DNA of 64,000 nucleotides from Lineus longissimus (GCF_910592395.1 NC_088312.1:2869858-2933857), one strand, 5' to 3'. Counted from the stretch's first letter, positions 10,830 through 60,659 are shown. A program made the numbers and translations. Notes: generated by a model from the sequence alone, not told the origin.

Positions 10830-11230
10830 TTGGGATGAGGCACTGCTCTTGATAGGTCTACTACATGCCATCTCAACCAGGATAGGTTTTACCAGGCCTA
10901 CCCCCTCAGAGGAGACTATCTATGCAACTGCAATGACGAACAGGGACATCTTCTAGAAGGATTCTCCTTTGGGTTGGGGCACTCCGCCCTTGATAGGCCT
11001 ACTGCATGCCATGTCATCCACGGTGTGGGTTCTACCAGGCCTGCCCCCATAGAGGAGACTATCTATGCAACTGCAATGACGAACATGGACATCTTCTAGA
11101 AGGATTCTCCTTTGGCCTGCCCCCTCAGAGGAGACTATCCCTGTAACTGTAATATCGACCAGGGACATCTTCTACAAGGATTCTCCTTTGGGTTGGGGCA
11201 CTCCGCCCTTGATAGGCCTACGTCTGTTAC
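10830..11230. repeat. ~130-bp satellite (3 copies: gaaggattctcctttgggttggggcactccgcccttgataggcctactgcatgccatgtcatcc..gaggagactatctatgcaactgcaatgacgaac). Mirrored at 17640..18020.
   Basis: Direct repetition visible in the sequence. Confidence 0.65.
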
Positions 11231-15115: not shown

Positions 15116-15129
15116 ATACTGCTGCTGTG

Positions 15130-35639: not shown

Positions 35640-35960
35640 ATCGAATAAGTTGCCTGTGTGTATGTGCTGTAGTTGCCTGTGTGTGTGTGCTGTAGTTGCC
35701 TGTGTGTGTGTGCTGTAGTTGCCTGTGTGTATGTGCTGTAGTTGCCTGTGTGTATGTACTGTAGTTGCCTGTGTGTATGTGCTGTAGTTGCCTGTGTGTA
35801 TGTGCTGTAGTTGCCTGTGTGTATGTACTGAAGTTGCCTGTGTGTATGTACTGTAGTTGCCTGTGTGTATGTACTGTAGTTGCCTGTGTGTATGTACTGT
35901 AGTTGCCTGTGTGTATGTACTGTAGTTGCCTGTGTGTATGCACTGTTTTGCCTGTGTGGG
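35640..35960. repeat. 26-bp tandem repeat (gtagttgcctgtgtgtatgtgctgta) x12 in ANKRD6-like intron 1
   Basis: Near-perfect periodicity. It generates the spurious repetitive ORFs 35590..36006- and 35636..36169-. Confidence 0.9.
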
Positions 35961-39897: not shown

Positions 39898-41472
39898 TCA
39901 AAGCTTAGCATCAAAACTGTCATTGCTGTGTCCATCTATGTCCATTGCTTGTTCCTGCTCCTCATGATCTGTTTGCCACACTCCCTGGCTGTGGCACCAA
40001 TGTGGCTTATCTCTCCCTTTTGTGACTTGCTTCTTGATGACCGGTTTAGTGGGAACAGGAGGAGGAGCTGGTACGTTCCGTTTTTTCGGATTGATGTAGG
40101 CCGTCTGCTGTTCTGTTTGGATCATTCTGTCCAAGGGCAGTGTATCAGCGGAAATTTGCTTATCCGTGTCGAGAGGCTTGTCTAGAGTTACCGGCTGGCC
40201 CCAGAATATTGGTGCATGCTCTGGTGATGGGCTTGCTGACTGCTGTCTTTGTGGCCTATTTTGGTAGATTGGCCCCGGCTGTACAGGCGACACTGGTCTC
40301 TGGCACAAGGTTTCATCTTGATAAACACGTTTTGGGTATCCAGGTTGTGCTACCTTTGATTGGTTCATTGGGACAATGGGCACCGGCCTCTGCTGTACAG
40401 GCGACACCGGTCTCTGCTGTACAGGTGATGCCGGTCTCTGCTGTACAGGCGATGCTGGCCTCTGCTGTACTGGGTGCACTGGTCTCTGACACAAGGTTTC
40501 ATCTTGGTTAACAAGCTTTGAGTTCCCAGGTAACTCTCCCTTTGCTTGGTTCATCGGTACAATGATTGGAAGTACCAAGACTTGCTGCTTGTTTTTCTTC
40601 AAAGTGTTAATGGTTTTCTCATCCAGAATCAGCTGCCCCTTCCTTAGATCTGGATTTTCCCCGCTTTGAACTTGGTGTTCAGGTATAGATCTCGCGTCTT
40701 CGACCTCTTCACTCTGGATCGGGTCTGGATCTGTTATGACTGGTGCCTGTGCTTCTGTTGTTTTGATGATATTGGCTCCTGAAGGCTCTGGTACCATGAA
40801 AATGTTCGCACCTGACTTTGGCACAACAATATTCCGTTCTGTTGACTTTTGGTGTTTTTTCTCCATCAGAATTTTAAGGGTTTGACAATGTTTACAGCGG
40901 GGACATCCCATCTTATGCAACGTGACATTCCGTGAATAACAATTCAGGGCCTGCACGATTGTTATCAAAATCTCACAGCAAGCGAAGACAACATACAGAA
41001 TATCCAGTGCGATCTTTCCACGGGCAGCTTTTGAACTAACCGGTACAATCCTTGGGCAAAGTATTGTCGAGTCAGTGTCCGAGAGATCAAGCACGATGGC
41101 GATTCCTCCAAAAACGATGGCCGCTGCTGCTATCATACCTGCTAGAAAACAAAATGTGATAGTTGTCATCACATACTTGCGTCCTCCATGATAAACTGTC
41201 AATATTCCCAGGAGTCCTGCTATGATGAAAAACACACCGCCCCATATTCCTATGCATATGATACCCATGCAAGTGTTCAGAAAGAAACAGCCAAGTCCGA
41301 TGGCGATGAAGCATAATCCGAAAACGATTTGCATAACTCCACAATAGAGGGCGGTAGCTTCACTGAATCCATATTTCTCGGTACGATATTGGTAATATGG
41401 CGAAGAGAGGGGATTGGTTCCATCAGACCGGATGCTGTTCCCACGTCTGAATTGGAGAGTCTCGTACTCCAT
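39898..41472 (-). CDS. Intronless 524-aa four-transmembrane protein (CD20/MS4A/sarcospan-like topology) with a proline-rich tail containing tandem SPVQQRPA octapeptide repeats. Nested antisense in ANKRD6-like intron 6.
   Basis: Uninterrupted 1575-nt ORF. Four hydrophobic 22-29 aa segments (ALYCGVMQIVFGLCFIAIGLGCFFL; MGIICIGIWGGVFFIIAGLLGILTV; YVMTTITFCFLAGMIAAAAIVFGGIAIVL; IALDILYVVFACCEILITIVQAL) with a very short first loop. TM1 has the GxxQIxxGL CD20-like signature. The C-tail repeats are encoded by a 24-bp DNA repeat. Confidence 0.6.
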   Translation of the reverse strand: MEYETLQFRRGNSIRSDGTNPLSSPYYQYRTEKYGFSEATALYCGVMQIVFGLCFIAIGLGCFFLNTCMGIICIGIWGGVFFIIAGLLGILTVYHGGRKYVMTTITFCFLAGMIAAAAIVFGGIAIVLDLSDTDSTILCPRIVPVSSKAARGKIALDILYVVFACCEILITIVQALNCYSRNVTLHKMGCPRCKHCQTLKILMEKKHQKSTERNIVVPKSGANIFMVPEPSGANIIKTTEAQAPVITDPDPIQSEEVEDARSIPEHQVQSGENPDLRKGQLILDEKTINTLKKNKQQVLVLPIIVPMNQAKGELPGNSKLVNQDETLCQRPVHPVQQRPASPVQQRPASPVQQRPVSPVQQRPVPIVPMNQSKVAQPGYPKRVYQDETLCQRPVSPVQPGPIYQNRPQRQQSASPSPEHAPIFWGQPVTLDKPLDTDKQISADTLPLDRMIQTEQQTAYINPKKRNVPAPPPVPTKPVIKKQVTKGRDKPHWCHSQGVWQTDHEEQEQAMDIDGHSNDSFDAKL

Positions 41473-42148
41473 GTCATCTGTTTAGAATCAAATATGACTT
41501 TATTCTAGTTTAAGAAATCTGTTCAAGCTGTTGTATGCCTGACGAGAAAATGTCTTTTTGTGTGATACTACAATCAGGCCATCCAAAATTCATGATGGTT
41601 GACCTGTAGTGCTCTGGCTAACAACTGCGTCTGCTCCACACTTGATATGGTAGCTATGTTAGCGATACTGCCAAACTTGCTCATTTGTTGCTCGTCTGAG
41701 TGTAGACACGTAAAGCTTATCAAGCATGTAAAACTTAGTCATGTGAGCATACCGTTGCTATGGTTATAACACTTATTTGGGGTTGTTGAATTGACAAATT
41801 GTTTGGAAGCATTTGAAGTGGGTTGCCTAACATTTATTGCTGGGGTAGTATTGTCTATAGCTATTGTTTGTATGTGCTGTTGAAACTCTTTAGCAACTTC
41901 TATTGTGCTCAACATCAAAAAATATTGATCATAAATAATGAATTTCTGCACTTTTTCTGTGTGTAAAATCTCTGTTAGTGTAAGTGGGTTGCTATAACGA
42001 TGGTTCGAGGAAAGAGATTTTTGGAGGGTGTATTAGCCAAAAGTACCAAAAGTAACTAATAACTAGTAACAAAAAGTAACTCATTTTTGCTGTCAGTGCA
42101 GAAAAGCTGAAATTCCCCAACCGTCCTAACATTCATGTACCATTTCAG

Positions 42149-43420: not shown

Positions 43421-43578
43421 GTAAGCTCAATTCAGTGCTCGGAATAGTTTCATAAAAGTGATTTTAAGAGCCAAATGCATGATAACTATCATCTTCAGCA
43501 GTCATTTCCAACTAGCCTCTTACTGTTGAATCTGTTCTTTGAAGAGTTAAGATATTCAAACAAGTTATCTCTTCTCAG

Positions 43579-45864
43579 CTGGTGTCTTATTCATCTGACG
43601 TACTTTTCCAGGGTCCTGTAGGCTTTGCCCCAGTCTGCCAATGTACGCCCGCCTTGAAACAATTCGAGCAGAGGATCGAGAACGATAACCGTAATGTCTA
43701 CAATCACGTTGAAGTTGCTCGGAAGATGTTGACAGAAAGAATAGACATGCTTGATCATAGAGGGCAGCAGCAGATGTTCCAGGTCGGCGATATGTTCGAA
43801 GAGGATGAGGAAGCATGTCGGGAACGTATTCACCAACGCAGTTTGGAGGATCGTCAATACCAGGAGCAGTTTGTTGAAGATTACTCTGATGGTCTGAAGA
43901 ATGAGTTGAAAACGTGGACAGCAGATCGCATGAAGTCGCTGGAGCGGCGGGTCGTGAAAGGCCATCACCATGACGATGCTGATTGGACACACGGACGGCC
44001 ACATAAATCTGGTGGGATGGTGCAGTCGTTAAATTACAACAATATTGTCGAAGGACGTCTGTACCGAGCACGATCAGACGAGACATTGTCGGTTTCCGAA
44101 TACAATCAGAAGCAAAAGACAGAGCGGGAAATGGCACACCAGGTGGCGCTGAGAGAATTACGTTCTATGCAGCGCTCACGGGCAGCTAGAGATGATCGTA
44201 GGAGGGATAGGAAACCGCCACAGCGGAAGGAACCGGCAATGGTTAAGGTGCAGTTTGAGCATGACAACATGCGTAGAGTGCAGTCTGCTGGACGGGAACC
44301 GGTTATAGGGAGAGAGCAAGTATCTGATACGATTCACCGGTCTCAGTCTGCGGGGCGGGAAATACCGTCAGGGAGGGATATGATGCAGTCAACTGGACGA
44401 GAACCTATGCATCAGATGGCCCAGGAGAGGGAACGAGTTCCTGGGAGAGACTATGTTCAAGTAAAACCTCATCCTGATCAGTTCAGGAGAGGTTCTGTCC
44501 CTGATCAATTCGGTCGGAGAGGATCAAATTCAGATCAGTTCGGTCGGGGAGAAGCTAACCCATCAAGGGAGAGGGTTCAAGTGAGGGAGCACAGCTTATC
44601 AAGGGATCAGTATTTGAGGAATAATACACCTCAGAGAGAGTATCCTGAGCGACGAGGATCTGTTCCGGTGCTGGATCATTTATATCCAAGAGACATGCCT
44701 CCAAAAAATGAAAAACATTTTAACCAAGAGAGAATTTTTGATGGCCAGGAGCAAAAATTTTCTCCATTACGGACTAGCCCGGATGGGCATAACTTTCGGC
44801 CAACCTCATTTTCTGAGGGCACCAGTGGTGACTTGAGAATGATAAACAGAACTGAATTCTATTCACCACGAAAAGTGCATTCGCAGGATGAATTGTCCCC
44901 GAAGAAGAATCAGGGACAAGAAGCAAGGCCTGATTTAAGTGCTAAAAGTTCACCAAATGTTAGTAATCCACCGAATGTGCCACTGAAAACACTTGATCCA
45001 AATCTGCTTCAAAGGTTTGAAAAGATGGACACAAATGGTAATGTGCATGTTGTGCATCCAAGGCAAGGCCTTCCTTATGATAGAGACAATTATTACGACA
45101 ATCGGTCACCGGGACATATTCAGGAGAAGACTGTTGCTAGGGCTCCACCTGTTGCTAATGAGGGCCATAAATCTGATCCGAATCTCCTTGATGTAACGAA
45201 ACAAAACACCAGTTTCAATAAGAACAGTAGCTTTAGAGACAACAGTTATAACAATAACGATGGTTACAAAAATAACGGTCATATTCAGATTGGAAGTCAT
45301 AATGGTGCAAACAGTAGCCGCAGTGCTAACAGTAGCTATAGTGACAGTTTTAACAATAGCGGAAACTATTATCATGTGCAGCATTCCACTGCTAATTACG
45401 ATAACCACAACCATAGTGGTAGCGAACCGTCCTATGCTTACATCGTCCCAAAACAGCATCAGAAAACAGACTCTGGTAGTAACCCAGATTCTGGGTACAG
45501 CAGTAAGATATACGGTGGAAAGGTCCAGCCCACTCCGAGACAAAATGGATCTGGGAGCCCGAATACCCCGGGTTCAACTTGTAGTACTGGTCATAATATT
45601 TCAAGCATCACATCAACGTCCATCTCGACTGATCAGAGCTTTCCCAGCGCCCACAGCTCGCCCGTTTCATGTGCCTCGGACAATGAGTCGAATCAGCGAC
45701 AGTATTATGAACGCGTTTCGCAGGAGATGAATCGTTATTATCAGCGACGGGGCGTTCCGCAGCACCCACCTGCAAGGAATGATGGACGATTACAGTTTGT
45801 GAATCCAGGGCAAAGACCCAACGTTGAGAGAAAACTAGAGCCTGTTACTGCCACTGATGTGTGA
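43579..45864 (+). CDS. ANKRD6: ANKRD6-like terminal exon, ~760 codons to TGA at 45862..45864. Low-complexity, S/N/R/Q/G-rich and predicted disordered.
   Basis: ctcttctcag|CTG acceptor at 43578. An alternative in-frame acceptor, ttttccag|GGT, lies at 43611. A single 2.28-kb ORF follows with no internal stops. Confidence 0.7.
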   Translation: MVSYSSDVLFQGPVGFAPVCQCTPALKQFEQRIENDNRNVYNHVEVARKMLTERIDMLDHRGQQQMFQVGDMFEEDEEACRERIHQRSLEDRQYQEQFVEDYSDGLKNELKTWTADRMKSLERRVVKGHHHDDADWTHGRPHKSGGMVQSLNYNNIVEGRLYRARSDETLSVSEYNQKQKTEREMAHQVALRELRSMQRSRAARDDRRRDRKPPQRKEPAMVKVQFEHDNMRRVQSAGREPVIGREQVSDTIHRSQSAGREIPSGRDMMQSTGREPMHQMAQERERVPGRDYVQVKPHPDQFRRGSVPDQFGRRGSNSDQFGRGEANPSRERVQVREHSLSRDQYLRNNTPQREYPERRGSVPVLDHLYPRDMPPKNEKHFNQERIFDGQEQKFSPLRTSPDGHNFRPTSFSEGTSGDLRMINRTEFYSPRKVHSQDELSPKKNQGQEARPDLSAKSSPNVSNPPNVPLKTLDPNLLQRFEKMDTNGNVHVVHPRQGLPYDRDNYYDNRSPGHIQEKTVARAPPVANEGHKSDPNLLDVTKQNTSFNKNSSFRDNSYNNNDGYKNNGHIQIGSHNGANSSRSANSSYSDSFNNSGNYYHVQHSTANYDNHNHSGSEPSYAYIVPKQHQKTDSGSNPDSGYSSKIYGGKVQPTPRQNGSGSPNTPGSTCSTGHNISSITSTSISTDQSFPSAHSSPVSCASDNESNQRQYYERVSQEMNRYYQRRGVPQHPPARNDGRLQFVNPGQRPNVERKLEPVTATDV

Positions 45865-48056
45865 GAGACTTGAGATTGAAAGAAATCGCTATCTTTTCAA
45901 ATTTGAATAAGATTGTTTAAATTATATATTTTTGATGATTGTCTAATGCATTTCAAATTTGGGGAAGGGGATATTTCACTAATATCTGATGTCAAACAGG
46001 AACTTGTTTATCATATTTTGGTGATTTATTTATAACTTCTGTCAAAAAGCTCATTCTTGACTGGACAGTTTGAAAAATAGGCAGCGGGTCTCAAGCTGCT
46101 AAGTGAAATATTGGGATGCTTGATTCCTTCTTATGAAGGTGTACATTGATGCAGAATGAATTTCATTGTATGAATTCAAGTTGTCTTACTTTTGTAAGTC
46201 ATCAAGATTTTTCTCCCTTGGAGTGCTGTAAAATATACATAATGTCTATATCCTATATATTTTATAACACTAGACCTGTATGGTGTGCATGTCCTAGTGT
46301 ATTGTTACTGGAAGCTGTTATAAGTTTTTGATACTGTATTTGGATTGTATTTATTCCACACTTTGTACATATTTCCTGATACTTGCATTCCGCCCAATGT
46401 CAATGTGTTGACATTTGAATATCAACAGCCCATGAAGAAATTGTTTTGACCAAATCTGATTGGTACTGCCTGTACCCTTTATTGCTTAGAACCAGTCAGT
46501 TGATTGGGCAGTATGGCAAAATATTCTCAGTCACCTCCATATCAGTAAGTTTATCGACCTTTAGTTCCCTCCCATAGCATAATGTGCACATTATTTATAT
46601 GACATGACGGGTAGAATATAATTTCAACCACAGTGTAAATCTTAGTATGGAACCCCAGATGGACTCACTGAAGTATTTCAGTATGTAGAATTTGTAAATA
46701 TTCCTTATTAATGATATGTACATTCTTGTAGACAAGCATTAATGGCTGCCATTGATATCATTTCGAAATGTAAGGGCCCTTTATCTTTGAAAGCATGACT
46801 CCTTAAAAGGACTATAGGCGGGAGCTTGGGGTGGTCGAGTCGGTGGTCAAACATAGTAGATACCAATTGGCAACTTTGTGAAACTTTTTCATGGCCACCT
46901 AGCTCTAGCCTATAATCTGTGTAAATCTTGGAGCTCTGTGCAAGTTCAGTCCACAGTTGAACCGTCCTCTTTTCATTTTTTCTGGCCTTGTATTGACCTT
47001 TCGGCATTGGAATTGATTTGTCCGAGCCTTGCACCTGAAGGACCGCGCAAACAAACCGTTTAAAATGCTGCAACCAGTGATTACTATCTGCTTTTCGAGA
47101 CAAAAATATCTCTCACCATCGCGGCTCCTCAGTTGAACCGGAGACCTTGGACATTAAGATTGAGCAGTGGAGGGACAGACAAAGAATGATAGCATTGTAG
47201 TGACATTGTCCTTGCAGCATTCCCGTTTACATTTTATAGTTGCGAGTTTTGATTTATCCGGTACTTCAGCCATTCCGTTTTTATCACGAGACATTGAGCG
47301 AGTCTTGTTGGCTCATTATGCAGCCAGTTCATTGTTCCTGTTATTTATTATTATTCTTAGCAAATGAAATAAAAGCTTTCAGATGACTCCAGTTTTTTTC
47401 CTGTTTCTTGTAATAAATGAGCATATTACCTCCAAAGCCTGCAAGCAGGCATGGAAGAGGCTACAGAGGCAATATATACCGCTGGAAGTTCAGTATGGGC
47501 CCAAGGGGCTGACACTTTGCTTCCTGCCCCAAGATAATGAAGGCAACAATATTTCAAACAATATGAGTTTATTATTAACAATACAAAATTTTTCTGACCA
47601 GATCTACATGGCTGGACGAGCATTTTAGAAACAAGTTGTTCAGCAGTCTCATTCTTGCAAGAACGAAACCGCTGCTGCTAGGGTCCTTGATCTTCACATA
47701 TACTCGATCCTCATCTACATGTTACCAGGGAAGGAGACTATTGAGGAAGACTTCCCAGGATGACAGGAGAATGCTTAAGACATCGTTAGCCGCAAATTTT
47801 TGGCGCCTTTTAAATTTTTCAATTTCATTTTATCACAATACTGCATAATGTAGCATCTAGCGAGCAGGAGGTCACAGGTCGTTATGTGGAGGGTTTCTTG
47901 AACTGAAACAAATAGAGTAGAGCGTACATGAATCATAATGTTTATTTATTTTTCATTTCATTGTGCTGCTGAAGCTTCCATGAAATAGTAAACTGAAAGA
48001 TAAAATCTTGGAGAGAGATTGCTGCCTAGTCTTTGTCATTACATTTCTAAAACTTT

Positions 48057-48191
48057 CTATAGAATATAATCCATATAATCTGTCCTCACCTCGATCATAT
48101 CAAAATGATGATTGTGCACATGCATCAAGTGAGATGGTTCCTTCAGGTCGGAGAGTTCACCCTTATAGAACATCTGGTAGGCGGTCAGCAT
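48057..48191 (-). CDS. Macro-domain protein putative terminal exon (MLTAYQMFYKGELSDLKEPSHLMHVHNHHFDMIEVRTDYMDYIL*)
   Basis: ttctctttcag|ATG acceptor, in frame to a TAG stop. An internal gtgagg site could be an alternative donor, so the true 3' end is uncertain. Confidence 0.35.
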   Translation of the reverse strand: MLTAYQMFYKGELSDLKEPSHLMHVHNHHFDMIEVRTDYMDYIL

Positions 48192-48350
48192 CTGAAAGAG
48201 AAATTAGAACATCTAAATATAAAATTTTACATATTCAAATTATCCCAAAATCAAATTATGCCAAAAAAAACTCACTTTCCGATAGTCTTTTCTGGGGTTT
48301 CAAGTAGATCCTACAAAGTAATCATTTGAACTTGTTCTTACATACTGTAC

Positions 48351-48463
48351 CTGGTATGCACATCTGTCTGCAGGCATCTTGCCCACAGCTGTCCCAAGTC
48401 CGGGGCATAGCACACTTCGAATTTTTTCCTGGTTGTCCTTGAGGTTGGCATTGTGTTTATTCA
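48351..48463 (-). CDS. Macro-domain protein exon 6 (V NKHNANLKDNQEKIRSVLCPGLGTAVGKMPADRCAYQ)
   Basis: cctcctcag|TG acceptor and CAG|gtacag donor. The PGLGTAVGKMP segment resembles the macro-domain second glycine loop. Confidence 0.5.
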
Positions 48464-48717
48464 CTGAGGAGGAAATGATAAGGAGATGGATACAAGAAAG
48501 TCTGGGCATGTCGGTTAAAGTGTTTCGAGATAATGCAGACCCACGGCAGTTCTAGGATGCATTTATAATATAGACAAACTCTCAATAAGTTGTTTCTGCA
48601 CATTCCTGATGTGCCCTCAATATACAGGAAGTATGATTTTTGTGATTTTGTGAAGGCCAGCCCAGGAATAACTTGAAACTCCTCCAGAAGGATACCTTCA
48701 TAGTAAGCTTAACTTAC

Positions 48718-48892
48718 CTGCTAAAATAACTGCCTTAAATGCCAAAAAAGCATTGGCCGTCTCCGACACATTTAGAGGTACTCTCATGGTTGGTGCACAG
48801 ATAAGATACTTTATCATTTGTCCCTGGTTGTACTGGGACCAGTCATCCCCTTCTGGTTCCCCTTCAAAAGTGGGTATGATGACTGCTTGACC
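48718..48892 (-). CDS. Macro-domain protein exon 5 (GQAVIIPTFEGEPEGDDWSQYNQGQMIKYLICAPTMRVPLNVSETANAFLAFKAVILA + 1 nt)
   Basis: aattcaag|GGT acceptor and G|gtaagt donor. 175 nt in frame. Confidence 0.5.
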
Positions 48893-49085
48893 CTTGAATT
48901 AAACACATCAGCAATGAGTTGGTTGAGATTGTCTTCTGTTATCAAATGACAAGTCGAGCTTTGGCCAATTTCAGAGTTAGTTTAACGAGGCATATCACAA
49001 CACTGCTGTAGTCGGCTGTTTTGCTATTGAAGGCTGATGCTCCAGAAAGATTGTGACCAGGACTAACTAAATGTGTCATACATAC

Positions 49086-49140
49086 CACAAGAACTTCTCC
49101 ATCGTAGTCTTTTCTAATCACTTTTTGAAGACGCTCAGAC
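49086..49140 (-). CDS. Macro-domain protein exon 4 (L SERLQKVIRKDYDGEVLV)
   Basis: ttgttag|G acceptor and GTG|gtatgt donor. Phase-consistent with the neighbouring exons. Confidence 0.5.
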
Positions 49141-49316
49141 CTAACAACAGAAAACAAATGCAAAAGGACTTGAAAAATCTGTAAGTGGCGGATAAGTTTG
49201 GATGATTGGAGTGTTACTTGGAACTATGCTGCCACATATTATAATGACAGGATACAGATTGGTTTAAGTGATTGAACAGATTTTCCAGAGTGTGTGCTAT
49301 TCCGAGTTTAACTTAC

Positions 49317-49393
49317 AGCTGCCATCCAAAATGTCTTGTATATGCCATGTCTATACCTCCATCCATGAACCCAAAACTATTGGCTGGAGATAC
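49317..49393 (-). CDS. Macro-domain protein exon 3 (VSPANSFGFMDGGIDMAYTRHFGWQ + 2 nt)
   Basis: cattccag|GTA acceptor and CT|gtaagt donor. The PANS..GGID segment corresponds to the macro-domain N(A)ANxxLxxGGGVD motif. Confidence 0.6.
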
Positions 49394-49634
49394 CTGGAAT
49401 GATCAAATGCATATGTCAGGGATGAGGAAGGGGGATTCACCAACTGCAGCAGGTCGATTATATGACAGAGTAGGGCATATTTCAGTCTATAAGGTGCATC
49501 ATCAACAAAGATGTGAAGACCATATCTTCCGAGGTTTCGTCCTTTGTAGATGCAGTTTTGTCTCTTATCACTCCAATAACTCATCTTTCCCGATGGGATG
49601 GGGGATGGGGCAGGTTAGCTATCTGAATACTTAC

Positions 49635-49682
49635 AATTGCATCAGCTGCTGGTCCATCTTTGAAGATGTCTCCCTTATGAAC
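49635..49682 (-). CDS. Macro-domain protein exon 2 (VHKGDIFKDGPAADAI)
   Basis: tttcccag|GTT acceptor and ATT|gtaagt donor. Contains the GDI..ADAIV macro-domain start. Confidence 0.6.
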
Positions 49683-49842
49683 CTGGGAAATAAAATGAAG
49701 GCTTGGTTACACTTAGAGAGTGGAGTTGGAGACCATCTTGGCCAGAATATCCCACCAATCTTGTCTTGATCTGAGCACAGTTAAGTGTGTAACCCAAGAC
49801 CCAGTGTCACATATCGTTTAGTAGAGTTACTCTGGCACCTAC

Positions 49843-49971
49843 CTCAATATCTCTTTCATCTTTGAATACTTCTTGCCATGCTGTGGTCATCCGATCTTTA
49901 ATATCACAGAATTTGTAGACAACTGGCTCAATGATCTCAACATAATCAGGATCAGGGTCTGACAGCGACAT
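49843..49971 (-). CDS. Macro-domain protein, coding exon 1 (MSLSDPDPDYVEIIEPVVYKFCDIKDRMTTAWQEVFKDERDIE)
   Basis: ATG at 49971 (minus strand) and GAG|gtaggt donor. Head-to-head with ALKBH3. Confidence 0.55.
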
Positions 49972-50273
49972 GGTTGGAGACTCTGGGGATGTGTTGAAGT
50001 TGAAGAGAAGTTGAACTGGCTGACAAATAATTAATAGTGGGGTATTTATTGGACATACTAAACTGTCATTGGAAGTGACAGAGATCTAAAAATACTAAAT
50101 AAGGAAATACAGTGTTGCAAATCTGGGAATCCCCACGAGAGGCCCGGCTGGTGTGGAAATATCTACAAGTTTACAAAAGCGACAATAACGCCAAACAATT
50201 CAACAAAAAACTTTCATTTTGGTCTTATTGTTTTGGTGTTTTCTCCTCTAATATTGAAAGTTCTGCCAATTTG
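49972..50273. promoter_or_regulatory. Bidirectional intergenic promoter region shared by the macro-domain gene (-) and ALKBH3 (+). Contains an inverted repeat ctgtcattggaagtgacag with an inverted CCAAT box.
   Basis: Only 302 bp separate the two divergent start codons. No TATA box is evident. Confidence 0.4.
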
Positions 50274-50453
50274 ATGGCGGATGATAGAAGAAGAAAGGCC
50301 CGTGTACAAGGCGGATGGGCTGGACCCTCCAAACCTGCGCCTCGATCGGACAGAAACAAGCCTAAATTGCCACCAACTCCTGCCTGGGTTGCATCAAATT
50401 CTGTTGACCAACCAGCACTTCAAAAGAAGTTTGTGTATCAACAACCAGCAGAG
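50274..50453 (+). CDS. ALKBH3: ALKBH3 (alkylated DNA/RNA repair dioxygenase AlkB homolog 3) exon 1, MADDRRRKARVQGGWAGPSKPAPRSDRNKPKLPPTPAWVASNSVDQPALQKKFVYQQPAE
   Basis: ATG at 50274 and GAG|gtgagg donor. The N-terminus matches the remembered human ALKBH3 sequence MEEKRRRARVQGAWAAP. Confidence 0.75.
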
Positions 50454-50620
50454 GTGAGGGTCCCATGGCGAGATTTACTGCTATTTAGATAATAGTAGGC
50501 CTAAGCTGTGTGCTGACTGGCTCTAAACGACGTCTAAACGTTCTAATTCTCTGTTTTCCATTTCGGTATGTAAAGAATTTTGTCTAAACTAAATTACTTT
50601 CTGTGTCCTTTCACTTTCAG

Positions 50621-50655
50621 GGAATAAAAGCAAAGTTACCGGAACTATGCATAAC
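50621..50655 (+). CDS. ALKBH3: ALKBH3 exon 2 (35 nt, GIKAKLPELCIT..)
   Basis: tcactttcag|GGA acceptor and AAC|gtaagt donor. It keeps the reading frame into exon 3. Confidence 0.55.
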
Positions 50656-50961
50656 GTAAGTGTCGAGGTGATTAAGCCAAGCCTAAGTCTGCATGATGTC
50701 TACAGTGATTGGTTCTTCTGTATTGGTTTGATGAATACAGTTTGAGTGTTTCACATGCATGTATCGGTATGGCCCTTGTAGATTTTCAGCTTGCAAGTCT
50801 AATCAATTCTTGATTTGATTTTAAATTATTGGGTCATTACTTTGGAGAGTAATGGCGATAACATCCTATTGGTAAATCCTCAAGCAGTGTTTTGGAGATC
50901 CGCAACTTTGTAGTGCCATGATGATGCGCTCTCTGCAATATCATATTTTCTTTTTCTTCAG

Positions 50962-51009
50962 GAAACCTGGTGTATATGACATTAGTGATGGTTCTGAAGG
51001 TGTTTCAAG
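50962..51009 (+). CDS. ALKBH3: ALKBH3 exon 3 (..KPGVYDISDGSEGVSR)
   Basis: tttttcttcag|GAA acceptor and AAG|gtgaga donor. Matches human GVYEISLSPTGVSR. Confidence 0.7.
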
Positions 51010-51342
51010 GTGAGAAAACCATGAAGTATTCATACTACTCAAAACTACAGAGCCTGTATAAAATCTCATAAAACTCTGCGCCTTTAAAGGAGCTGATTTG
51101 TAGTGAGCGTTGAGATGGTTGAATAGTAAGACTGTTGTCAATGTCGCTTTCACTGAATCCAGTCATGTGTATAGTGTCATCTGTGGAATGATATTGTTCA
51201 CTTGTGCTCCAGTCAGGATGAATAACTGGATGTCGATTGTCAAGTTTTAGAGTATTTTTTTGTTGTTGAATACCAGACTCTCATCTCCTGCGTACAATTT
51301 GACAACCCACTTTTATAATTTTTTCCCATCTCTCTTCTCCAG

Positions 51343-51529
51343 ATTACGTTTTTTCCCGGAATTCATCAAAGAGTCAGAAGCTAGTGAAATATTTCATGAA
51401 CTTCATGGGGAGTTACCATGGAAACAGCAGACAAACAAAAAATATGACAGTGTCGAACCTCGGCTCACAGTCTGGTATGGAGACCTGGCATACAATTACT
51501 CCGGGGTGCTCCAAGTGCCCAACCCAGAG
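51343..51529 (+). CDS. ALKBH3: ALKBH3 exon 4 (LRFFPEFIKESEASEIFHELHGELPWKQQTNKKYDSVEPRLTVWYGDLAYNYSGVLQVPNPE)
   Basis: tctcttctccag|A acceptor and GAG|gtgaga donor. Conserved PWKQ..PRLT.WYG motif of ALKBH2/3. Confidence 0.8.
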
Positions 51530-51847
51530 GTGAGAAAATAGGACTCCTGGTAGAATGAAGAACCTGCACCCCCACTTGGAAACTTGAAGGGTACCTGTGC
51601 TGTTACCAAGAGTCGAAATTGTCCCCCTAAAGAAGGGAATGCCATCATAATCATCACCCCCTATTTTTAGCACTGTCGGGTAACATAAGGCTTTCTTTAT
51701 GGGTTTAACGCTGAAATATCATATCCAGGTAGAATGGCCTGTAAAGACCACTTATTCAGTGTCACTGTCAGAGCAAAAAAAGGTCAGGTAACTTGATATT
51801 TCACAACATGCATGCGACTACTAACATTTGATTCTCCTTTATTCCAG

Positions 51848-52057
51848 TGGTATCCCCTCCTCAAAAATCTCAAAGATCGTTTAGAAGAAGTGACCGGGTG
51901 TCAGTTCAATTCAATGTTAGGAAACCTATATCGTGATGGAAAGGACAGTATAGCGTGGCATGCTGACGATGAGCCTATTTTAGGGACCCATCCAATAATT
52001 GCTTCCTTATCGTTTGGTGATTCACGACTCTTTCAACTCAGGAAAAATGTCCCCGAG
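51848..52057 (+). CDS. ALKBH3: ALKBH3 exon 5 (WYPLLKNLKDRLEEVTGCQFNSMLGNLYRDGKDSIAWHADDEPILGTHPIIASLSFGDSRLFQLRKNVPE). Includes the 2OG-Fe(II) oxygenase HxD motif.
   Basis: tttattccag|TGG acceptor and GAG|gtaagg donor. FNS.L.NLYR.GKDSI.WH.DDEP.LG..P.IASLSFG is near-identical to the remembered human ALKBH3. Confidence 0.85.
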
Positions 52058-52223
52058 GTAAGGTTGAAATGGTGATCATTTGAGGCAAACAGATTTCTGG
52101 CTTTGGCTAGGAGTAAATGGAAAGCACTTTGAGAATGTTCTCCGACTTAAACCTCATTTCATCATTTGCAATTTCGTCTAACTTGGTTGCAAAAATTCTT
52201 ATATCTGTGTCCTTTTCTTCCAG

Positions 52224-52316
52224 GGTGAAAGCTATGACAATAGCCAGTATCTCAAGTTACCACTGACGCATGGTAGTCTGCTCATAATGGAGGGTGCAAC
52301 ACAACTCGACTGGCAG
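52224..52316 (+). CDS. ALKBH3: ALKBH3 exon 6 (GESYDNSQYLKLPLTHGSLLIMEGATQLDWQ)
   Basis: ccttttcttccag|GGT acceptor and CAG|gtaaga donor. HGxLLIMEGATQxDWQ motif. Confidence 0.8.
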
Positions 52317-52552
52317 GTAAGAGTGATAGGTTAAACTTACTTTTTGGCAACACTGAAGATCTGATTACACTTAAGCGGTGCGAGTTAAATTCACGCTGTG
52401 GGGAAAATTCGGTTTGCATAAATTGTAAAGCTAGCAGGAACAGCCGTGGTTTTTAATTTCACTGCTGCCTTAGGATTGCTGTGGTGACCTGAGATATCTG
52501 AAAGCTGAACTGTGCGAAAGGCGTATGCTAATGTTCTCCTCTTGATTTGCAG

Positions 52553-52627
52553 CACAAAGTACCAAAGGAATATCACGACAAAGGCCCAAGGATAAACCTT
52601 ACGTTCAGAGTTATTATTCCTGAATGA
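52553..52627 (+). CDS. ALKBH3: ALKBH3 terminal exon (HKVPKEYHDKGPRINLTFRVIIPE*)
   Basis: cttgatttgcag|CAC acceptor, then TGA at 52625..52627. The HRVPKEYHSREPRVNLTFR motif is conserved. Confidence 0.8.
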   Translation, partial: HKVPKEYHDKGPRINLTFRVIIPE

Positions 52628-53289: not shown

Positions 53290-55000
53290 ACAGTAGATTG
53301 ATCAGAGGACATGCCTGTTTGTGCCTTTGTCCTGTCTGCCATCTCGTCTCTTCCTACCAGACTGGTCTCCTTCATTGATCATCATTAGGGACACAACATC
53401 CCCAATCCTGAGACACACATTTGGTTTCATAAGAGAGTACGTCTGTTTGTGCCTTTGTCCTGTCTGCCATCGCAGACCACTGATCTCATCCCTTCTCGTT
53501 TGGCTGGTCTTCTCCATTGATTATCATCACAGATAAAACATCCACTGATCATCATTACAGACAGAACATCCCTAATCCTGCGTTGCACATGTGGATTTAT
53601 CAGAGGGTATTGTTGTGCCTTTGTCTCACTTGCCCTTGCACACAGTTTGATCTCGTTCCATCCTACTGTGCTGTTCTTTCCCATTGATCATCACTGGACA
53701 CTGAATCCTCCAATCCTCCAATCCTATGATGATCCTGGACTTGAGATACCATCCAAGGCCATGCCTTGTTGTGCCTTTGTCTCACTTTCCCTTGCACAGT
53801 TTGATCTCGTCCCATCCTACTGTGCTGCTCTTTCCCATTGATCATCACTGGACACTCAATCCTCCAATCCTCCAACCCTGGGATGACCCTGGACTTGAGA
53901 TACCATCCAAGGCCATGCCTTGTTGTGCCTTTGTCTCACTTGCCCTTGCATGCGGTTTGATCTCGTCCCATCCTACTGTGCTGTTCTTTCCCATTGATCA
54001 TCACTGGACACTCAATCCTCCAATCCACCAACCCTGGGATGACCCTGGACTTGAGATACCATCCAAGGCCATGCCTTGTTGTGCCTTTGTCTCACTTTCC
54101 CTTGCACAGTTTGATCTCGTCCCATCCTACTCTGCTGCTCTTTCCCATTGATCATCACTGGACACTCAATCCTCCAATCCTCCAACCCTGGGATGACCCC
54201 ATCCAAGGCCATGCCTTGTTGTGCCTTTGTCTCACTTGCCCTTGCACAGTTTGATCTCGTCCCATCCTACTGTGCGGGTCTTTCCCACTGATCATCTTTA
54301 CCATTGACCGGTCACCGAAAGCTTACGCCCCCAAATCTAGTTCATGACGAGTGAAATGCCGTCAAGTACCAGTCTCTTATGTGTGAATGGTGGAGACTGG
54401 TGAAAGAGTCTACCGAATATTGGGGACAAATAGAGACTGCAGTGACCCTGTGGGAGAGGTCGTGTTTACTTTGTCTCACTTGCCCTTGCACACAGTTTGA
54501 TCTCGTCCCATCCTACTGTGCTGTTCTTTCCCATTGATCATCACTGGACATACTCAATCCTCCAATCCTCCAACCCTGGGATGACCCTGGACTTGAGATA
54601 CCTTCCAAGGCCATGCCTTGTTGTGCCTTTGTCTCACTTTCCCTTGCACACAGTTTGATCTCGTCCCATCCTACTGTGCTGTTCTTTCCCATTGATCATC
54701 ACTGGACACTCAATCCTCCAATCCTCCAATCCTGTGATGACCCTGGACTTGAGATACCATCCAAGGCCATGCCTTGTTGTGCCTTTGTCTCACTTGCCCT
54801 TGCACACAGTTTGATCTCGTCCCATCCACTGTACTGTTCATTCCCATTGATCATCACTGGACACTAAATTCCCCAATCCTCGAATGCGCCTGGAGATACC
54901 ATCCAAGGCCATGCCTTGTTGTGCCTTTGTCCCACTTGGTTCTCATGCTTTCTTGCTGGGCTGTTCTTTCCCATTGACCATTATTGAAGATACAGGATGT
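53290..55000. repeat. Satellite array with a ~150-bp monomer (..ccatccaaggccatgccttgttgtgcctttgtctcacttgcccttgcacacagtttgatctcgtcccatcctactgtgctgttctttcccattgatcatcactggacactcaatcctccaatcctccaaccctgggatgaccctggacttgagata..), about 10 copies. Interrupted by ~180 bp of unique sequence at 54290..54470.
   Basis: The atgccttgttgtgcctttgtctcact marker recurs at 53761, 53909, 54071, 54209, 54613, 54769 and 54911. Confidence 0.85.
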
Positions 55001-57431: not shown

Positions 57432-57656
<225 letters not shown>

Positions 57657-58266: not shown

Positions 58267-58480
58267 CTGAAAATGTTATTGATACAATGAAGGAATTGCG
58301 CTGAAAAGACCTGAAATTAAGTGCTTTGTAGCTACTCCTTACATTTACTGGAAGACTCGAAGATAATGAAGGATTTGTTTATGAAAATGTGTTTTAAGAT
58401 ATTCAACTTTACTTTCTTATGTTATCAAAAATGACAACACGACGCAAGTAAATTCTGAAACCAAATGATAATTTTCTCAC

Positions 58481-58642
58481 TTTGTCATCCTCATAGATGA
58501 TATTCGCTGGGATCTCTCGGTTGATGATCTTTGTGAAGACGGTCTCAGCTGGCTTTCCCTCCTTCTGATACTTTTCTTGTGCTTCTTTTGCGGCCTTGAC
58601 CTCATCATGGTCACCCTTATTGTGGGACCCTTCACTCATCAT
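58481..58642 (-). CDS. HINT1: HINT (histidine triad nucleotide-binding protein) exon 1, MMSEGSHNKGDHDEVKAAKEAQEKYQKEGKPAETVFTKIINREIPANIIYEDDK
   Basis: ATG at 58642 (minus strand) and AAA|gtgaga donor. TVFTKIINREIPANIIYEDD corresponds to the HINT1 [20 protein letters not shown]. Confidence 0.75.
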
Positions 58643-60659
58643 GCACTGCTGACAATGTGGAAGAAAATATCCAATTAGTCAATTTAAAAACAGATAAAAG
58701 TTACCCCCCACAAGCATGCACATACCAGACTATGCTTAGTGCTATGTCTGAACCAGATACAAAATCTGAAAATTTTGTCCAACTACTGCCGCAGCCGATG
58801 CAGTCCTCAAAGTAGTATAGATGAGTTTTATACAGAATTTTGTAAGTTCTAAAAGCAATCAGCATTATGAAAGAAAACAAATCCAGGAGGGGAGGAGGGT
58901 ACCTTTTCCAACATCTCATTATACATGCTATAAGAAGGTCCAGTTCCCGAACAGCAATTTCAGTTTAAAGATATCTCGAAATAGTTTGCTCTTCGTCCCG
59001 AATCACATCCCGCCAATATATAAGGCCGTTTTCATTTCGACAACAACTATATTGACTCATGAATTTTTAGGGACATTAGGCCACAAAAAGCTTTTTTCAT
59101 ACCAGTACTCTACACCCTCCTCAAAATTAGAATGTGAGGGCTTATTTCCATGCGATAGAATAAAAACAAGAAAAGAAACCCGAACGCCAAGTAAAGAGAA
59201 TCCAGCTGAAGAGAAAGCACTCCGCATGTCATCTTGAACACCAAAGTTTTTCGCCATGGAAATTCAAAATGTTCTCTTTAGAATGACCAGATACAAAACC
59301 TTGGTTAGTCAGGATGACGGCATCAAAACCATTCTGCTGGCACTCGAAGAATAATACTTACATTTATACAACCGACCAAAGATAGAATAAACAAAATTAT
59401 CAAGCATAGCTGAAAAGTAAGATTGAGTTTTTACTGGTACTTTACGAAGAGGCACTGTAGGCCAACACAAACAGTTGGCAGCTACATCTCATCAGATACC
59501 TTAAAAAACTTTTTTGGTAATTTTGACCCCCCAAATTGGACCCACATATCATTCTGTTATAAAGTGCTATCAAAGCCAAAAGATGTTTATTTTATTATCT
59601 AATCTAGTGGATAGTGTACTGTTAGTGTTAGTGAGAACCCTGCGACGTGCTGTTATATCAAGCACAAGCTAACCCGAACTTGTTTCATGGTGCGACTAAT
59701 TTGTTTCTGACCAGTACTGTAGCGATATACACTGTTGCGCATTTGGCGGGAAAAATTGCCTGCACACGAGGATCATAAGTAGTAGGTACACTATAAAACC
59801 TCGCACCAAGGATGCTAAAAACTAATTACCTGAGCTGTGAACAACGGAAATGCTTTTATTTTGCTTCTGCCAGTGACCCAAAGTTGTGAAGATCTTTGAA
59901 AAACTCTAACATATACTGACATTATTCATACAATCCAGTTATTTCATAGTTTTTGTGAGCGAAATGCCGGGACGAAATGTAGCCCAGTGCAAAATGCTAA
60001 TGTCGAAACATGGAGCTAGATGCAGGGCGGTATGGGGCGTCTACAAAGAAAGACCATAGATCAAAGACCGGCAGCAGTTACCCTTTCGGGATGAGGTCGT
60101 CCCAAAACGACTATCGGGAATCTGAATAGAGGGGAAAAGGGTAGGGGAACATGGAGCAGAGCAGGCTTTGGGACTCAGGAATGGGATTTGTCATATGCTA
60201 GGCCTACTAACGCAAATGATCGAGATCGCCGAAATCACTTTATATTTACAGTACTCTCGGTGTTGATTTAATTGTTGGTTTATCAAGTTACACAGTCACA
60301 AAACAAAATCATAACTACGAAACGCCCTGCCACAAATGACCAAGAACATTGACCAGCAATAATATCAAGAATTAATTGCAACTACAGAATGCAATACTTG
60401 ACTACTGTGTTTGGTATGCCAAAAGTATAAGACACGTTGTTGACGGTCTTGAGTCATAGGTCTTTGTTTTGACGCGAGCCCAACGTTGATAGGCATAAAT
60501 TATGATAATTAACACTTGTACTGCTCGACAAATAGCTTTGATAAATCTGCGCAGTAAGATGCGCATACTGTCGAAAATTTAACAAAACAGGCAAAATGGC
60601 TGTCATTTGTGGATATTGTTGAAATGTAGGAGGAAAAATTACTTATTACTGGTGCAAAA

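What the first reader, a model, noticed from the sequence alone, without database searches (positions are those of the whole stretch)
48057..52627. Head-to-head macro-domain gene and ALKBH3 sharing a ~300-bp bidirectional promoter
The macro-domain gene (minus, ATG at 49971) and ALKBH3 (plus, ATG at 50274) are divergently transcribed from a 302-bp interval. ALKBH3 is a 2OG/Fe(II) demethylase for alkylated DNA/RNA. Macro domains bind or hydrolyse ADP-ribose, a DNA-damage signal. Tight divergent pairing of two damage-response enzymes suggests co-regulation and possibly functional coupling. The macro protein is atypical: FGFMDGGID replaces the canonical GGGVDG loop.
Basis: partly seen in the sequence, partly recalled or inferred. 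Interest (0 to 1): 0.6.

Follow-up and report, generated by a model that had tools for sequence, protein, structure and literature searches.

The report
Lineage-specific divergent ALKBH3–macrodomain gene pair
Two real, already-annotated genes of the ribbon worm Lineus longissimus (an ALKBH3 demethylase and a YMR087W-like macrodomain protein) do sit head-to-head 302 bp apart, but the pairing is absent from all seven other animal genomes checked, so it looks like an ordinary by-product of gene-order shuffling and not a functional unit.

Summary
The window is Lineus longissimus (Nemertea) DNA. The geometry is real: the macro gene (minus strand, ATG 49971) and ALKBH3 (plus strand, ATG 50274) are divergent, with 302 bp between start codons. 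My ALKBH3 model (7 exons, 275 aa) equals the NCBI protein exactly. The true CDS splices at 48090 to an eighth exon (47902-47882), which matches the NCBI protein and a transcript from a related nemertean.

The macro protein belongs to the Macro2-type (yeast YMR087W/Pdl32-like) clade, not MacroD, TARG1 or Poa1p. Its 'atypical' SPANSFGFMDGGID loop is invariant across the family and still fits N-x6-GG[VLI]D.

The adjacency is not conserved in any of 7 other genomes. In Tubulanus and Gigantopelta the two genes share a chromosome but lie 15-22 Mb apart. The macro gene's recurrent head-to-head partner is instead a mitochondrial-type acetoacetyl-CoA thiolase (ACAT1-like), seen in 4 of 6 genomes. None of 80 bacterial loci places an AlkB or thiolase gene beside the macro gene.

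The verdict is a real, compact, lineage-specific divergent pair. Functional coupling is unsupported and interest is low. The macro-ACAT1 microsynteny is the more interesting by-product.

The parts
50274..52627 (+). ALKBH3 orthologue, CDS span. The 7 coding exons are 50274-50453, 50621-50655, 50962-51009, 51343-51529, 51848-52057, 52224-52316 and 52553-52627 (stop included). The product is 275 aa.
   Evidence: All introns are GT-AG and the frame is continuous. The translation is identical to NCBI P0121. Pfam 2OG-FeII_Oxy_2 scores E 5e-33. Human ALKBH3 structures score E 3e-73, against 1e-30 for ALKBH2. The Fe(II) triad is H188/D190/H252 and the 2OG arginines are R264/R270.
47882..49971 (-). Macro2-type (YMR087W-like) macrodomain gene, CDS span. 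The 8 coding exons are 49971-49843, 49682-49635, 49393-49317, 49140-49086, 48892-48718, 48463-48351, 48191-48090 and 47902-47882 (stop included). The product is 239 aa.
   Evidence: All introns are GT-AG and the translation is identical to NCBI P0001, LOC135487551. The congener transcript L010 aligns to every exon. Pfam Macro scores 37.5 bits (cut-off 22) and Macro_2 scores 32.5 bits (cut-off 27). The best PDB sequence hit is 1njr at E 1.7e-5. The AF2 model has pLDDT 86.6 and its best fold match is 1njr at E 1.1e-9.
48057..48089 (-). It is not coding.
   Evidence: A GT donor lies at 48089/48088. The NCBI protein and the congener protein and transcript continue with FKKPS(T/S) from exon 8.
49972..50273 (.). 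302-bp interval between the two start codons. It holds both 5'UTRs and the presumed divergent promoter.
   Evidence: GC is 37% and CpG o/e is 0.39. There is no TATA box and no CpG island, and no motif is shared with macro- or ALKBH3-upstream regions of 9 other loci.
49972..50103 (-). Inferred 5'UTR of the macro gene, at least 132 nt, contiguous with exon 1.
   Evidence: Transcript L010 nt 1-30 aligns to 50103-50074, and nt 60-281 aligns to 50068-49841. This is inferred from a related species and is not a Lineus longissimus transcript.
49752..49793 (-). This stretch is NOT part of the feature and is listed only to prevent confusion. The codons for the ADP-ribose-binding loop SPANSFGFMDGGID (residues 61-74) lie in exon 3 at about 49390-49349, not here.
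   Evidence: Exon 3 (49393-49317) begins with VSPANSFGFMDGGID.

Best explanation
This is an ordinary, lineage-specific divergent (head-to-head) pair of two housekeeping-type genes in Lineus longissimus.

ALKBH3 is a canonical Fe(II)/2-oxoglutarate dealkylase orthologue. The partner encodes a Macro2-type macrodomain protein of the YMR087W/Pdl32 family. It most likely binds an ADP-ribose derivative and hydrolyses it, with ADP-ribose-1''-phosphate to ADP-ribose as the model reaction.

The two genes belong to the same ancestral chromosome in spiralians but are normally megabases apart. In the lineage leading to Lineus, an intrachromosomal rearrangement brought ALKBH3 next to the macro gene's 5' end. 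That is the position held in several other bilaterians by an ACAT1-like thiolase.

The two genes now start within at most 170-300 bp of each other. They therefore probably use back-to-back core promoters in one nucleosome-free region, which may cause some co-expression.

What is shown: gene structures, protein family assignments, the geometry, and the lack of conservation of the pairing.

What is inferred: the rearrangement history, promoter sharing, and the enzymatic activity of the macro protein.
For: - Organism and gene models: P0001 and P0121 are Lineus longissimus proteins on one 23.9-Mb contig, and the models are identical to them.
- ALKBH3 identity.
- Macro2-type assignment: plus PMC6397177.
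- Ligand-loop residues: N64 and D74 align with YMR087W N80 and D90 and are invariant in the family.
- No adjacency seen from the macro side in Tubulanus, Lingula, Saccoglossus, Glandiceps, Gigantopelta or Patiria.
- No adjacency seen from the ALKBH3 side in Tubulanus, Gigantopelta or Owenia.
- Same chromosome but far apart: Tubulanus OZ123226.1 has the genes at 5.33 and 27.85 Mb, and Gigantopelta CM027793.1 has them at 42.5 and 57.5 Mb.
- No neighbouring gene is shared between the window and any of 9 orthologous loci.
- An ACAT1-type thiolase is head-to-head with the macro gene in 4 of 6 genomes.
- None of 80 bacterial macro loci has AlkB or thiolase within 6 kb, and their neighbours are heterogeneous.
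- Bidirectional pairs are common and are usually not functionally related (PMC5572396).
Against: - Promoter sharing and co-expression were not measured. No Lineus longissimus transcript data were available, and the genome is not in the gene-position index.
- The closest genome sampled is another nemertean class (Tubulanus). The pair could be conserved within Heteronemertea, which could not be tested.
- The two genes stay on the same chromosome across spiralians, but that is expected from conserved macrosynteny.
- The third residue of the catalytic triad proposed for YMR087W (His145, recalled from Kumaran et al. 2005 and not re-read here) is Cys135 in Lineus and Ser in most orthologues. The Appr-1''-p phosphatase activity is therefore only an analogy.
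Confidence: 0.8

Rival explanations
1. One reading: the pair is a co-regulated damage-response module. ALKBH3 would reverse alkylation damage, while the macro protein reads or erases damage-induced ADP-ribosylation, both driven from one bidirectional promoter.
For: The start codons are 302 bp apart. After subtracting the inferred macro 5'UTR, at most 170 bp remain. Both protein superfamilies include damage-response members. Both could also touch tRNA/RNA metabolism: Macro2-type enzymes act on a tRNA-splicing by-product (PMC6397177), and ALKBH3 acts on methylated RNA (background knowledge).
Against: The pairing is absent in 7 of 7 other genomes. No AlkB gene lies next to the macro gene in 80 bacterial loci. 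A literature search for ALKBH3 with macrodomain found no functional link. The Macro2-type clade is reported to lack de-MARylase activity. The interval has no recognisable shared or conserved regulatory motif.
Confidence: 0.07
2. The genes are adjacent but independent. Two separate core promoters happen to lie back-to-back, or the 5' ends overlap or use an upstream non-coding exon. Under this reading there is no shared regulation at all.
For: The ALKBH3 TSS is unmapped. The interval is AT-rich, CpG-poor and lacks motifs typical of shared bidirectional promoters. The pairing is evolutionarily recent, so there has been little time for co-adaptation.
Against: With at most 170 bp between the macro transcript's 5' end and the ALKBH3 ATG, the two initiation zones must fall in essentially one nucleosome-free region. 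In other animals this usually gives some co-expression (PMC5572396).
Confidence: 0.25
3. The adjacency is an assembly artefact, a misjoin between two distant parts of the chromosome.
For: In the other genomes the two genes are on one chromosome but megabases apart, so a local mis-scaffold could in principle fake the adjacency.
Against: There is no gap or run of N in 49800-50500. The sequence homologous to the congener macro 5'UTR runs uninterrupted to 50103, only 170 bp from the ALKBH3 ATG. A misjoin would have to fall exactly inside that 170 bp. NCBI annotated both genes on the same 23.9-Mb contig.
Confidence: 0.03

Closest known systems
Human ALKBH3 (PDB 2iuw, 8jnr, 9ncz)
   Same: It has the same 2OG-FeII_Oxy_2 catalytic domain. 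Alignment over residues 71-275 gives E about 3e-73. The HxD...H iron triad (H188, D190, H252) and the R264/R270 pair are conserved, and the length is similar (275 vs 286 aa).
   Different: The N-terminal ~60 residues are divergent, basic and low-complexity. Identity to vertebrate orthologues is only about 50-55%. No activity data exist for the nemertean protein.
Yeast YMR087W / Ymx7 / Pdl32 (PDB 1njr), the only studied Macro2-type macrodomain, an ADP-ribose-1''-phosphate phosphatase
   Same: It is the best sequence hit (E 1.7e-5) and the best fold hit (E 1.1e-9, TM 0.52) among all solved structures. The SPxNSxGxxxGGxD ligand loop is shared, with N64/D74 matching N80/D90. The second loop P-G-L-x-T-(G/A) and a C-terminal helical extension are also shared.
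   Different: Identity is only about 22-28%. YMR087W His145 corresponds to Cys135 (Ser in most orthologues). The animal proteins carry a ~20-residue acidic insertion (residues ~112-130) that bacterial members lack. The TM-score is modest. Activity has not been tested.
MacroD-type macrodomains (MacroD1/2, Af1521, OiMacroD, DR_2288)
   Same: They share the macrodomain fold and the N-x6-GG[VLI]D motif (ANSFGFMDGGID vs ANKQLMGGGGVD).
   Different: Sequence similarity is weak (E 0.02-0.5). The second loop is GTAVG, not G[VIA][YF]G. Pfam Macro_2 also matches. This is not the closest class.
Vertebrate-style bidirectional promoters (head-to-head genes with TSSs less than 1 kb apart)
   Same: The arrangement is divergent with 302 bp between ATGs, and one partner is a DNA/RNA-repair gene.
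   Different: There is no CpG island (CpG o/e 0.39, GC 37%) and no conserved motif. The TSSs are not mapped. The pair is not evolutionarily conserved.

Membership tests
ALKBH3 (AlkB homologue 3, Fe(II)/2OG dioxygenase) | 2OG-FeII_Oxy_2 (AlkB-type) catalytic domain scoring above the Pfam cut-off | tested here: met
   PF13532 scores 115.4 bits against a cut-off of 31.2, over residues 89-270.
ALKBH3 (AlkB homologue 3, Fe(II)/2OG dioxygenase) | HxD...H iron-binding triad and the conserved R-x5-R 2-oxoglutarate-binding arginines | tested here: met
   WH188AD190DE, WQH252KVP and R264INLTFR270 align with the corresponding residues in the human ALKBH3 structures.
ALKBH3 (AlkB homologue 3, Fe(II)/2OG dioxygenase) | Closer to ALKBH3 than to the paralogue ALKBH2 or other AlkB homologues | tested here: met
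   ALKBH3 structures score E 3e-73, against 1e-30 for ALKBH2. The top 120 database hits are all named ALKBH3.
ALKBH3 (AlkB homologue 3, Fe(II)/2OG dioxygenase) | Oxidative demethylation of 1-meA/3-meC in ssDNA or RNA | not testable with these tools
   This needs an enzyme assay.
Macrodomain superfamily | Pfam Macro match above the cut-off, and a three-layer alpha/beta/alpha macro fold | tested here: met
   PF01661 scores 37.5 bits against a cut-off of 22. The AF2 model has pLDDT 86.6 and pTM 0.87. All fold matches at E <= 2e-3 are macrodomains, apart from one designed protein.
Macrodomain superfamily | ADP-ribose-binding loop 1 motif N-x6-GG[VLI]D | tested here: met
   N64-SFGFMD-G71G72-I73-D74 fits the motif, and these positions are invariant in 28 family members. 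The motif definition is from background knowledge of the macrodomain literature.
Macro2-type clade (YMR087W/Pdl32-like; Pfam Macro_2) | Pfam Macro_2 match above the gathering score | tested here: met
   PF14519 scores 32.5 bits against a cut-off of 27, a narrow pass. Most orthologues carry a precomputed PF14519 hit.
Macro2-type clade (YMR087W/Pdl32-like; Pfam Macro_2) | The closest solved structure by both sequence and fold is YMR087W (1njr) | tested here: met
   phmmer gives E 1.7e-5, with the next hit above 0.02. Foldseek gives E 1.1e-9, with the next macrodomain at 5.8e-5.
Macro2-type clade (YMR087W/Pdl32-like; Pfam Macro_2) | Proposed catalytic residues of YMR087W (Asn80, Asp90, His145; recalled from Kumaran et al. 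2005, not re-read here) | tested here: inconclusive
   N80 and D90 correspond to N64 and D74, which are conserved and invariant. H145 corresponds to C135 in Lineus and to Ser in most orthologues, so it is not conserved.
Macro2-type clade (YMR087W/Pdl32-like; Pfam Macro_2) | ADP-ribose-1''-phosphate phosphatase activity without de-MARylase activity | not testable with these tools
   The activity is known only for the yeast protein (PMC6397177).
MacroD-type / TARG1-type / Poa1p (ALC1-clade) macrodomains | Best similarity to members of that class | tested here: not met
   MacroD-type chains score E 0.02-0.5. No TARG1 or Poa1p chain scores at E <= 1 by sequence. TARG1/C6orf130 (2eee) is only rank 15 by fold, at E 0.06.
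Bidirectional-promoter gene pair | Head-to-head orientation with starts less than 1 kb apart | tested here: met
   The ATGs are at 49971 (minus) and 50274 (plus). The congener transcript's 5' end maps to 50103.
Bidirectional-promoter gene pair | Mapped TSSs and shared regulatory elements or co-expression | not testable with these tools
   No Lineus longissimus expression data were available, and the look-ups failed. No shared or conserved motif was detected.
Conserved (functionally constrained) microsyntenic pair | Adjacency retained in other lineages | tested here: not met
   The adjacency is absent in all 7 other genomes. The genes are 22.5 Mb apart in Tubulanus and 15 Mb apart in Gigantopelta.

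The most novel reading that the evidence does not exclude
In the heteronemertean lineage a rearrangement broke an ancient macro-ACAT1 bidirectional pair and put ALKBH3 in ACAT1's place. ALKBH3 is now driven from the macro gene's divergent promoter. The two enzymes would then form a lineage-specific co-regulated RNA-maintenance module: ALKBH3 removes m1A/m3C from tRNA/RNA, and the Macro2-type enzyme clears ADP-ribose-1''-phosphate made during tRNA splicing or RNA 2'-phosphate removal. Separately, the macro-ACAT1 head-to-head pair is itself a previously unnoticed ancient bilaterian microsynteny, invisible in vertebrate-anchored surveys because vertebrates appear to lack the macro gene. It hints at a mitochondrial or acyl-CoA-linked role for Macro2-type proteins, in keeping with the report that yeast Pdl32 is partly mitochondrial.
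Probability: 0.07. Interest if true: 0.45.

Novelty: new member of a known kind. Interest (0 to 1): 0.15.

Why it matters
As submitted, the finding matters little. Both genes are already annotated, divergent pairs are commonplace, and this one is not conserved.

The work still has three uses:
1. It corrects the macro gene's 3' end.
2. It assigns the 'uncharacterized' LOC135487551 to the Macro2-type/YMR087W clade. That family is widespread in marine invertebrates and bacteria, appears absent from vertebrates, and has essentially no functional data.
3. It reveals that this gene's recurrent divergent partner across protostomes and deuterostomes is an ACAT1-like thiolase. That is a testable lead to the unknown biology of Macro2-type macrodomains.

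Tried and rejected
- Looked for a thiolase in the window by tblastn with Tubulanus and Saccoglossus thiolase fragments. None was found, so the ACAT1 partner is not within 14 kb upstream of the macro gene in Lineus.
- Tried to fetch the official Lineus gene calls through P0001 and P0121. Neither is on record, so no annotated UTRs or TSSs could be obtained.
- Searched for genes shared between the window and 9 orthologous loci. Only the exons of the two genes themselves matched.
- Tested the prokaryotic guilt-by-association idea on 80 bacterial loci. Pfam scans of 151 flanking ORFs gave no recurrent partner. There was only a thin scatter of NAD/ADP-ribose-related genes: NAMPT/NAPRTase x2, NrtR+NUDIX x2, Pribosyltran x3, Tpt1/KptA x1. 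ORF calling was crude (longest non-overlapping ORFs), so some neighbours were missed.
- Literature search for ALKBH3 with macrodomain. The only apparent hit, the ASCC1 paper, mentions macrodomains only in its reference list.
- Rfam scan of the whole window gave nothing.
- Motif and CpG analysis of the 302-bp interval, and blastn against upstream regions of orthologues, gave nothing beyond coding sequence.
- NCBIfam gave only sub-threshold hits to bacterial macro models and did not help with subfamily assignment.
It cannot be excluded as a retained-intron product, but neither the NCBI model nor the congener transcripts support it.

Full report
**Source and gene models**

The window is eukaryotic DNA with short GT-AG introns. 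The macro protein's best database hit is 'uncharacterized protein LOC135487551 [Lineus longissimus]' (P0001). The ALKBH3 protein's best hit is 'alpha-ketoglutarate-dependent dioxygenase alkB homolog 3-like [Lineus longissimus]' (P0121). Both are on a 23,943,388-bp contig.

My 7-exon ALKBH3 model has exons 50274-50453, 50621-50655, 50962-51009, 51343-51529, 51848-52057, 52224-52316 and 52553-52627. It translates to exactly P0121, 275 aa.

The real transcript splices from 48090 to an eighth exon at 47902-47882, which encodes FKKPST*. The 8-exon model is identical to P0001.

Two intronless RNA-seq contigs from a related nemertean give independent support. They are L010 and L011, and their product P0002 is 86% identical. 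They align to all eight exons at exactly these boundaries.

It is corrected for the macro 3' end.

**ALKBH3**

- Pfam 2OG-FeII_Oxy_2 scores E 5e-33.
- Human ALKBH3 crystal structures score E about 3e-73 over residues 71-275, against about 1e-30 for ALKBH2.
- The iron triad (H188, D190, H252) and the arginines R264 and R270 align with the human residues.

This is a straightforward orthologue.

**The macro protein**

- It passes the Pfam gathering scores of both Macro (37.5 bits, cut-off 22) and Macro_2 (32.5 bits, cut-off 27).
- By sequence, the only convincing solved relative is yeast YMR087W/Ymx7 (1njr, E 1.7e-5). MacroD-type chains score 0.02-0.5, and no TARG1 or Poa1p chain appears.
- An AlphaFold2 model built on a 28-sequence alignment is confident (pLDDT 86.6, pTM 0.87).
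- Its best Foldseek match in the PDB is again 1njr (E 1.1e-9, TM 0.52). Next come PARP9 macro 1 and macroH2A macrodomains. TARG1/C6orf130 is only rank 15.

In the literature YMR087W is the sole studied representative of the 'Macro2-type' clade. It converts ADP-ribose-1''-phosphate to ADP-ribose and is reported to lack de-MARylating activity. Poa1p belongs to the ALC1 clade (PMC6397177).

**The 'atypical' loop**

In an alignment of 28 family members from nemerteans, molluscs, brachiopod, annelid, hemichordates, echinoderms, cnidarians, sponges and bacteria, the string S61-P-A-N-S-F-G-F-M-D-G-G-I-D74 is invariant or nearly so at every position. It is the family signature, not a peculiarity of this protein.

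It still fits the general macrodomain loop-1 pattern N-x6-GG[VLI]D. Only the first glycine of 'GGG' is Asp. N64 and D74 align with N80 and D90 of YMR087W. From my memory of Kumaran et al. 2005, those residues together with His145 were proposed as catalytic. The His145 position is Cys135 in Lineus and Ser in most orthologues. A YMR087W-like phosphatase mechanism is therefore an analogy, not a demonstrated property.

**Synteny test**

From the macro side, with ±10 kb flanks:

| Species (locus) | Neighbours of the macro gene |
|---|---|
| Tubulanus polymorphus, a palaeonemertean (L001) | Thiolase head-to-head, then three 3-hydroxyacyl-CoA dehydrogenase genes downstream |
| Lingula (L002) | LamG/EGF gene and an EH-domain gene |
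| Saccoglossus (L003) | Thiolase head-to-head |
| Glandiceps (L004) | Thiolase head-to-head |
| Gigantopelta (L005) | Thiolase head-to-head, about 4.9 kb away |
| Patiria (L006) | Short-chain dehydrogenase |

From the ALKBH3 side:

| Species (locus) | Neighbours of ALKBH3 |
|---|---|
| Tubulanus (L007) | ABC transporter and CCDC81 |
| Gigantopelta (L008) | Cofilin |
| Owenia (L009) | SUEL-lectin gene |

The pair is found in none of the seven other species. A six-frame comparison of all nine loci with the window finds only the exons of the two genes themselves.

ALKBH3 and the macro gene are nevertheless on the same chromosome in Tubulanus (5.33 vs 27.85 Mb) and in Gigantopelta (42.5 vs 57.5 Mb). 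That pattern matches conserved chromosome-scale linkage with scrambled local order. The Lineus adjacency is then most simply a lineage-specific intrachromosomal rearrangement. This is an inference.

**The real recurrent partner**

In 4 of 6 genomes the macro gene's divergent neighbour is a 413-421-aa thiolase. A Tubulanus exon fragment matches human mitochondrial acetoacetyl-CoA thiolase ACAT1 (2ib7/2f2s) at E 2e-36, against 8e-21 for cytosolic ACAT2. The hemichordate copies are 69-77% identical to the Tubulanus fragments. No thiolase lies in the Lineus window.

The nemertean, gastropod and hemichordate lineages together span the protostome-deuterostome split. This therefore looks like an ancient bilaterian microsyntenic pair that Lineus, Lingula and Patiria have lost.

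**Prokaryotic neighbourhoods**

The family has bacterial members about 45-54% identical to the animal proteins. In 80 bacterial loci with ±6 kb flanks, tblastn with Lineus ALKBH3, E. coli AlkB and thiolase probes found nothing. Pfam scans of 151 immediately flanking ORFs showed no recurrent partner. There was only a scatter of NAD/ADP-ribose-related genes, including one Tpt1/KptA, two NAMPT and two NrtR-NUDIX. That scatter is weakly consistent with an ADP-ribose-metabolite role. It gives no support to coupling with AlkB.

**The interval**

The congener transcript's 5' end aligns to window position 50103. The macro 5'UTR is therefore at least 132 nt long and contiguous with exon 1. At most 170 bp remain before the ALKBH3 ATG. 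The two initiation zones must be very close, so a shared nucleosome-free region is likely. This is an inference, because the ALKBH3 TSS is unmapped.

The 302 bp are 37% GC with CpG o/e 0.39. There is no TATA box or CpG island, and no motif is shared with upstream regions of orthologues.

**Chance and literature**

[quoted passage not shown] A single unconserved pair in which both partners can loosely be labelled 'damage-related' is not beyond chance. No paper in the searchable library links ALKBH3 to a macrodomain protein.

**Verdict**

This is a real, compact, lineage-specific divergent gene pair made of two already-annotated genes. The macro gene model needed a 3' correction. The macro protein is a typical Macro2-type family member. 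The proposed functional coupling is unsupported by synteny, by bacterial context and by the literature. Interest is low (0.15). The macro-ACAT1 microsynteny and the poorly studied, vertebrate-absent Macro2-type family are the more worthwhile leads.

Noticed in passing
L001 6222-14764; L003 1-14154; L004 1-13133; L005 1-17844: The Macro2-type gene is head-to-head with an ACAT1-like (mitochondrial acetoacetyl-CoA) thiolase. This holds in a nemertean (Tubulanus, gap ~1 kb), two hemichordates (Saccoglossus ~0.4 kb, Glandiceps ~0.5 kb) and a gastropod (Gigantopelta ~4.9 kb). It appears to be an ancient bilaterian divergent pair, lost in Lineus, Lingula and Patiria. Yeast Ymr087w/Pdl32 is reported as partly mitochondrial (PMC5494306).
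   Followed up: partly
L001 16671-22869: In Tubulanus, three tandem 318-aa 3-hydroxyacyl-CoA dehydrogenase genes lie just downstream of the macro gene, with the thiolase upstream. The macro gene therefore sits inside a small cluster of beta-oxidation/ketone-body genes.
   Followed up: no
Contig lengths; L001/L007 and L005/L008: ALKBH3 and the macro gene are on the same chromosome in Tubulanus (22.5 Mb apart) and Gigantopelta (15 Mb apart). The pattern is conserved macrosynteny without microsynteny.
   Followed up: partly
Alignment A1; loci L012-L091: Animal and bacterial members of the macro family (Myxococcota, Acidobacteriota, Bradyrhizobium, Chthonomonadaceae, Deinococcus) are about 45-54% identical, which is unusually close. 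Animal proteins differ mainly by a ~20-residue acidic insertion. No vertebrate, arthropod or nematode protein appears in the top 120 hits. This could reflect strong constraint or ancient horizontal transfer.
   Followed up: no
window 53610-54296 and 54469-54938: Two arrays of a ~154-156-bp tandem repeat (4.5 and 3.1 copies, ~90% identity) lie about 1 kb downstream of ALKBH3. They produce long spurious ORFs on both strands.
   Followed up: no
window 10035-11292 vs 17565-18772, and 12351-12762 vs 15096-15592: Nested inverted duplications are present: identical ORF translations appear on opposite strands. This suggests a large palindromic element or a transposon with long inverted ends spanning ~10.0-18.8 kb. 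It carries internal 51-, 76-, 92- and 143-bp tandem repeats.
   Followed up: no
window 57432-57656 and 58412-58678 (minus strand): These are exons of a HIT-domain (HINT-like) gene. Pfam HIT scores E 3e-6 on one exon, and the other exon carries the 'FTKIINREIPANI' N-terminal motif.
   Followed up: partly
window 43543-45861 (+) and 39901-41481 (-): Two long uninterrupted ORFs are present. One is 773 aa with no Pfam hit. The other is 527 aa with only a sub-threshold CD20-like hit. Both are unusual in a region where other genes have many short exons.
   Followed up: partly
window 50063-50081: A perfect 6-bp inverted repeat, CTGTCA-N7-TGACAG, lies inside the inferred macro 5'UTR. It falls exactly where the congener transcript alignment breaks (between 50074 and 50068). 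This may be chance.
   Followed up: no
window 35648-35958: A 23-bp minisatellite (AGTTGCCTGTGTGTATGTACTGT) is present with 13.6 copies at 96% identity.
   Followed up: no
L-series bacterial loci (alignments A2, A3): A few bacterial macro genes neighbour NAD/ADP-ribose metabolism genes: NAMPT/NAPRTase x2, NrtR-NUDIX x2 and Tpt1/KptA RNA 2'-phosphotransferase x1. [quoted passage not shown]
   Followed up: partly
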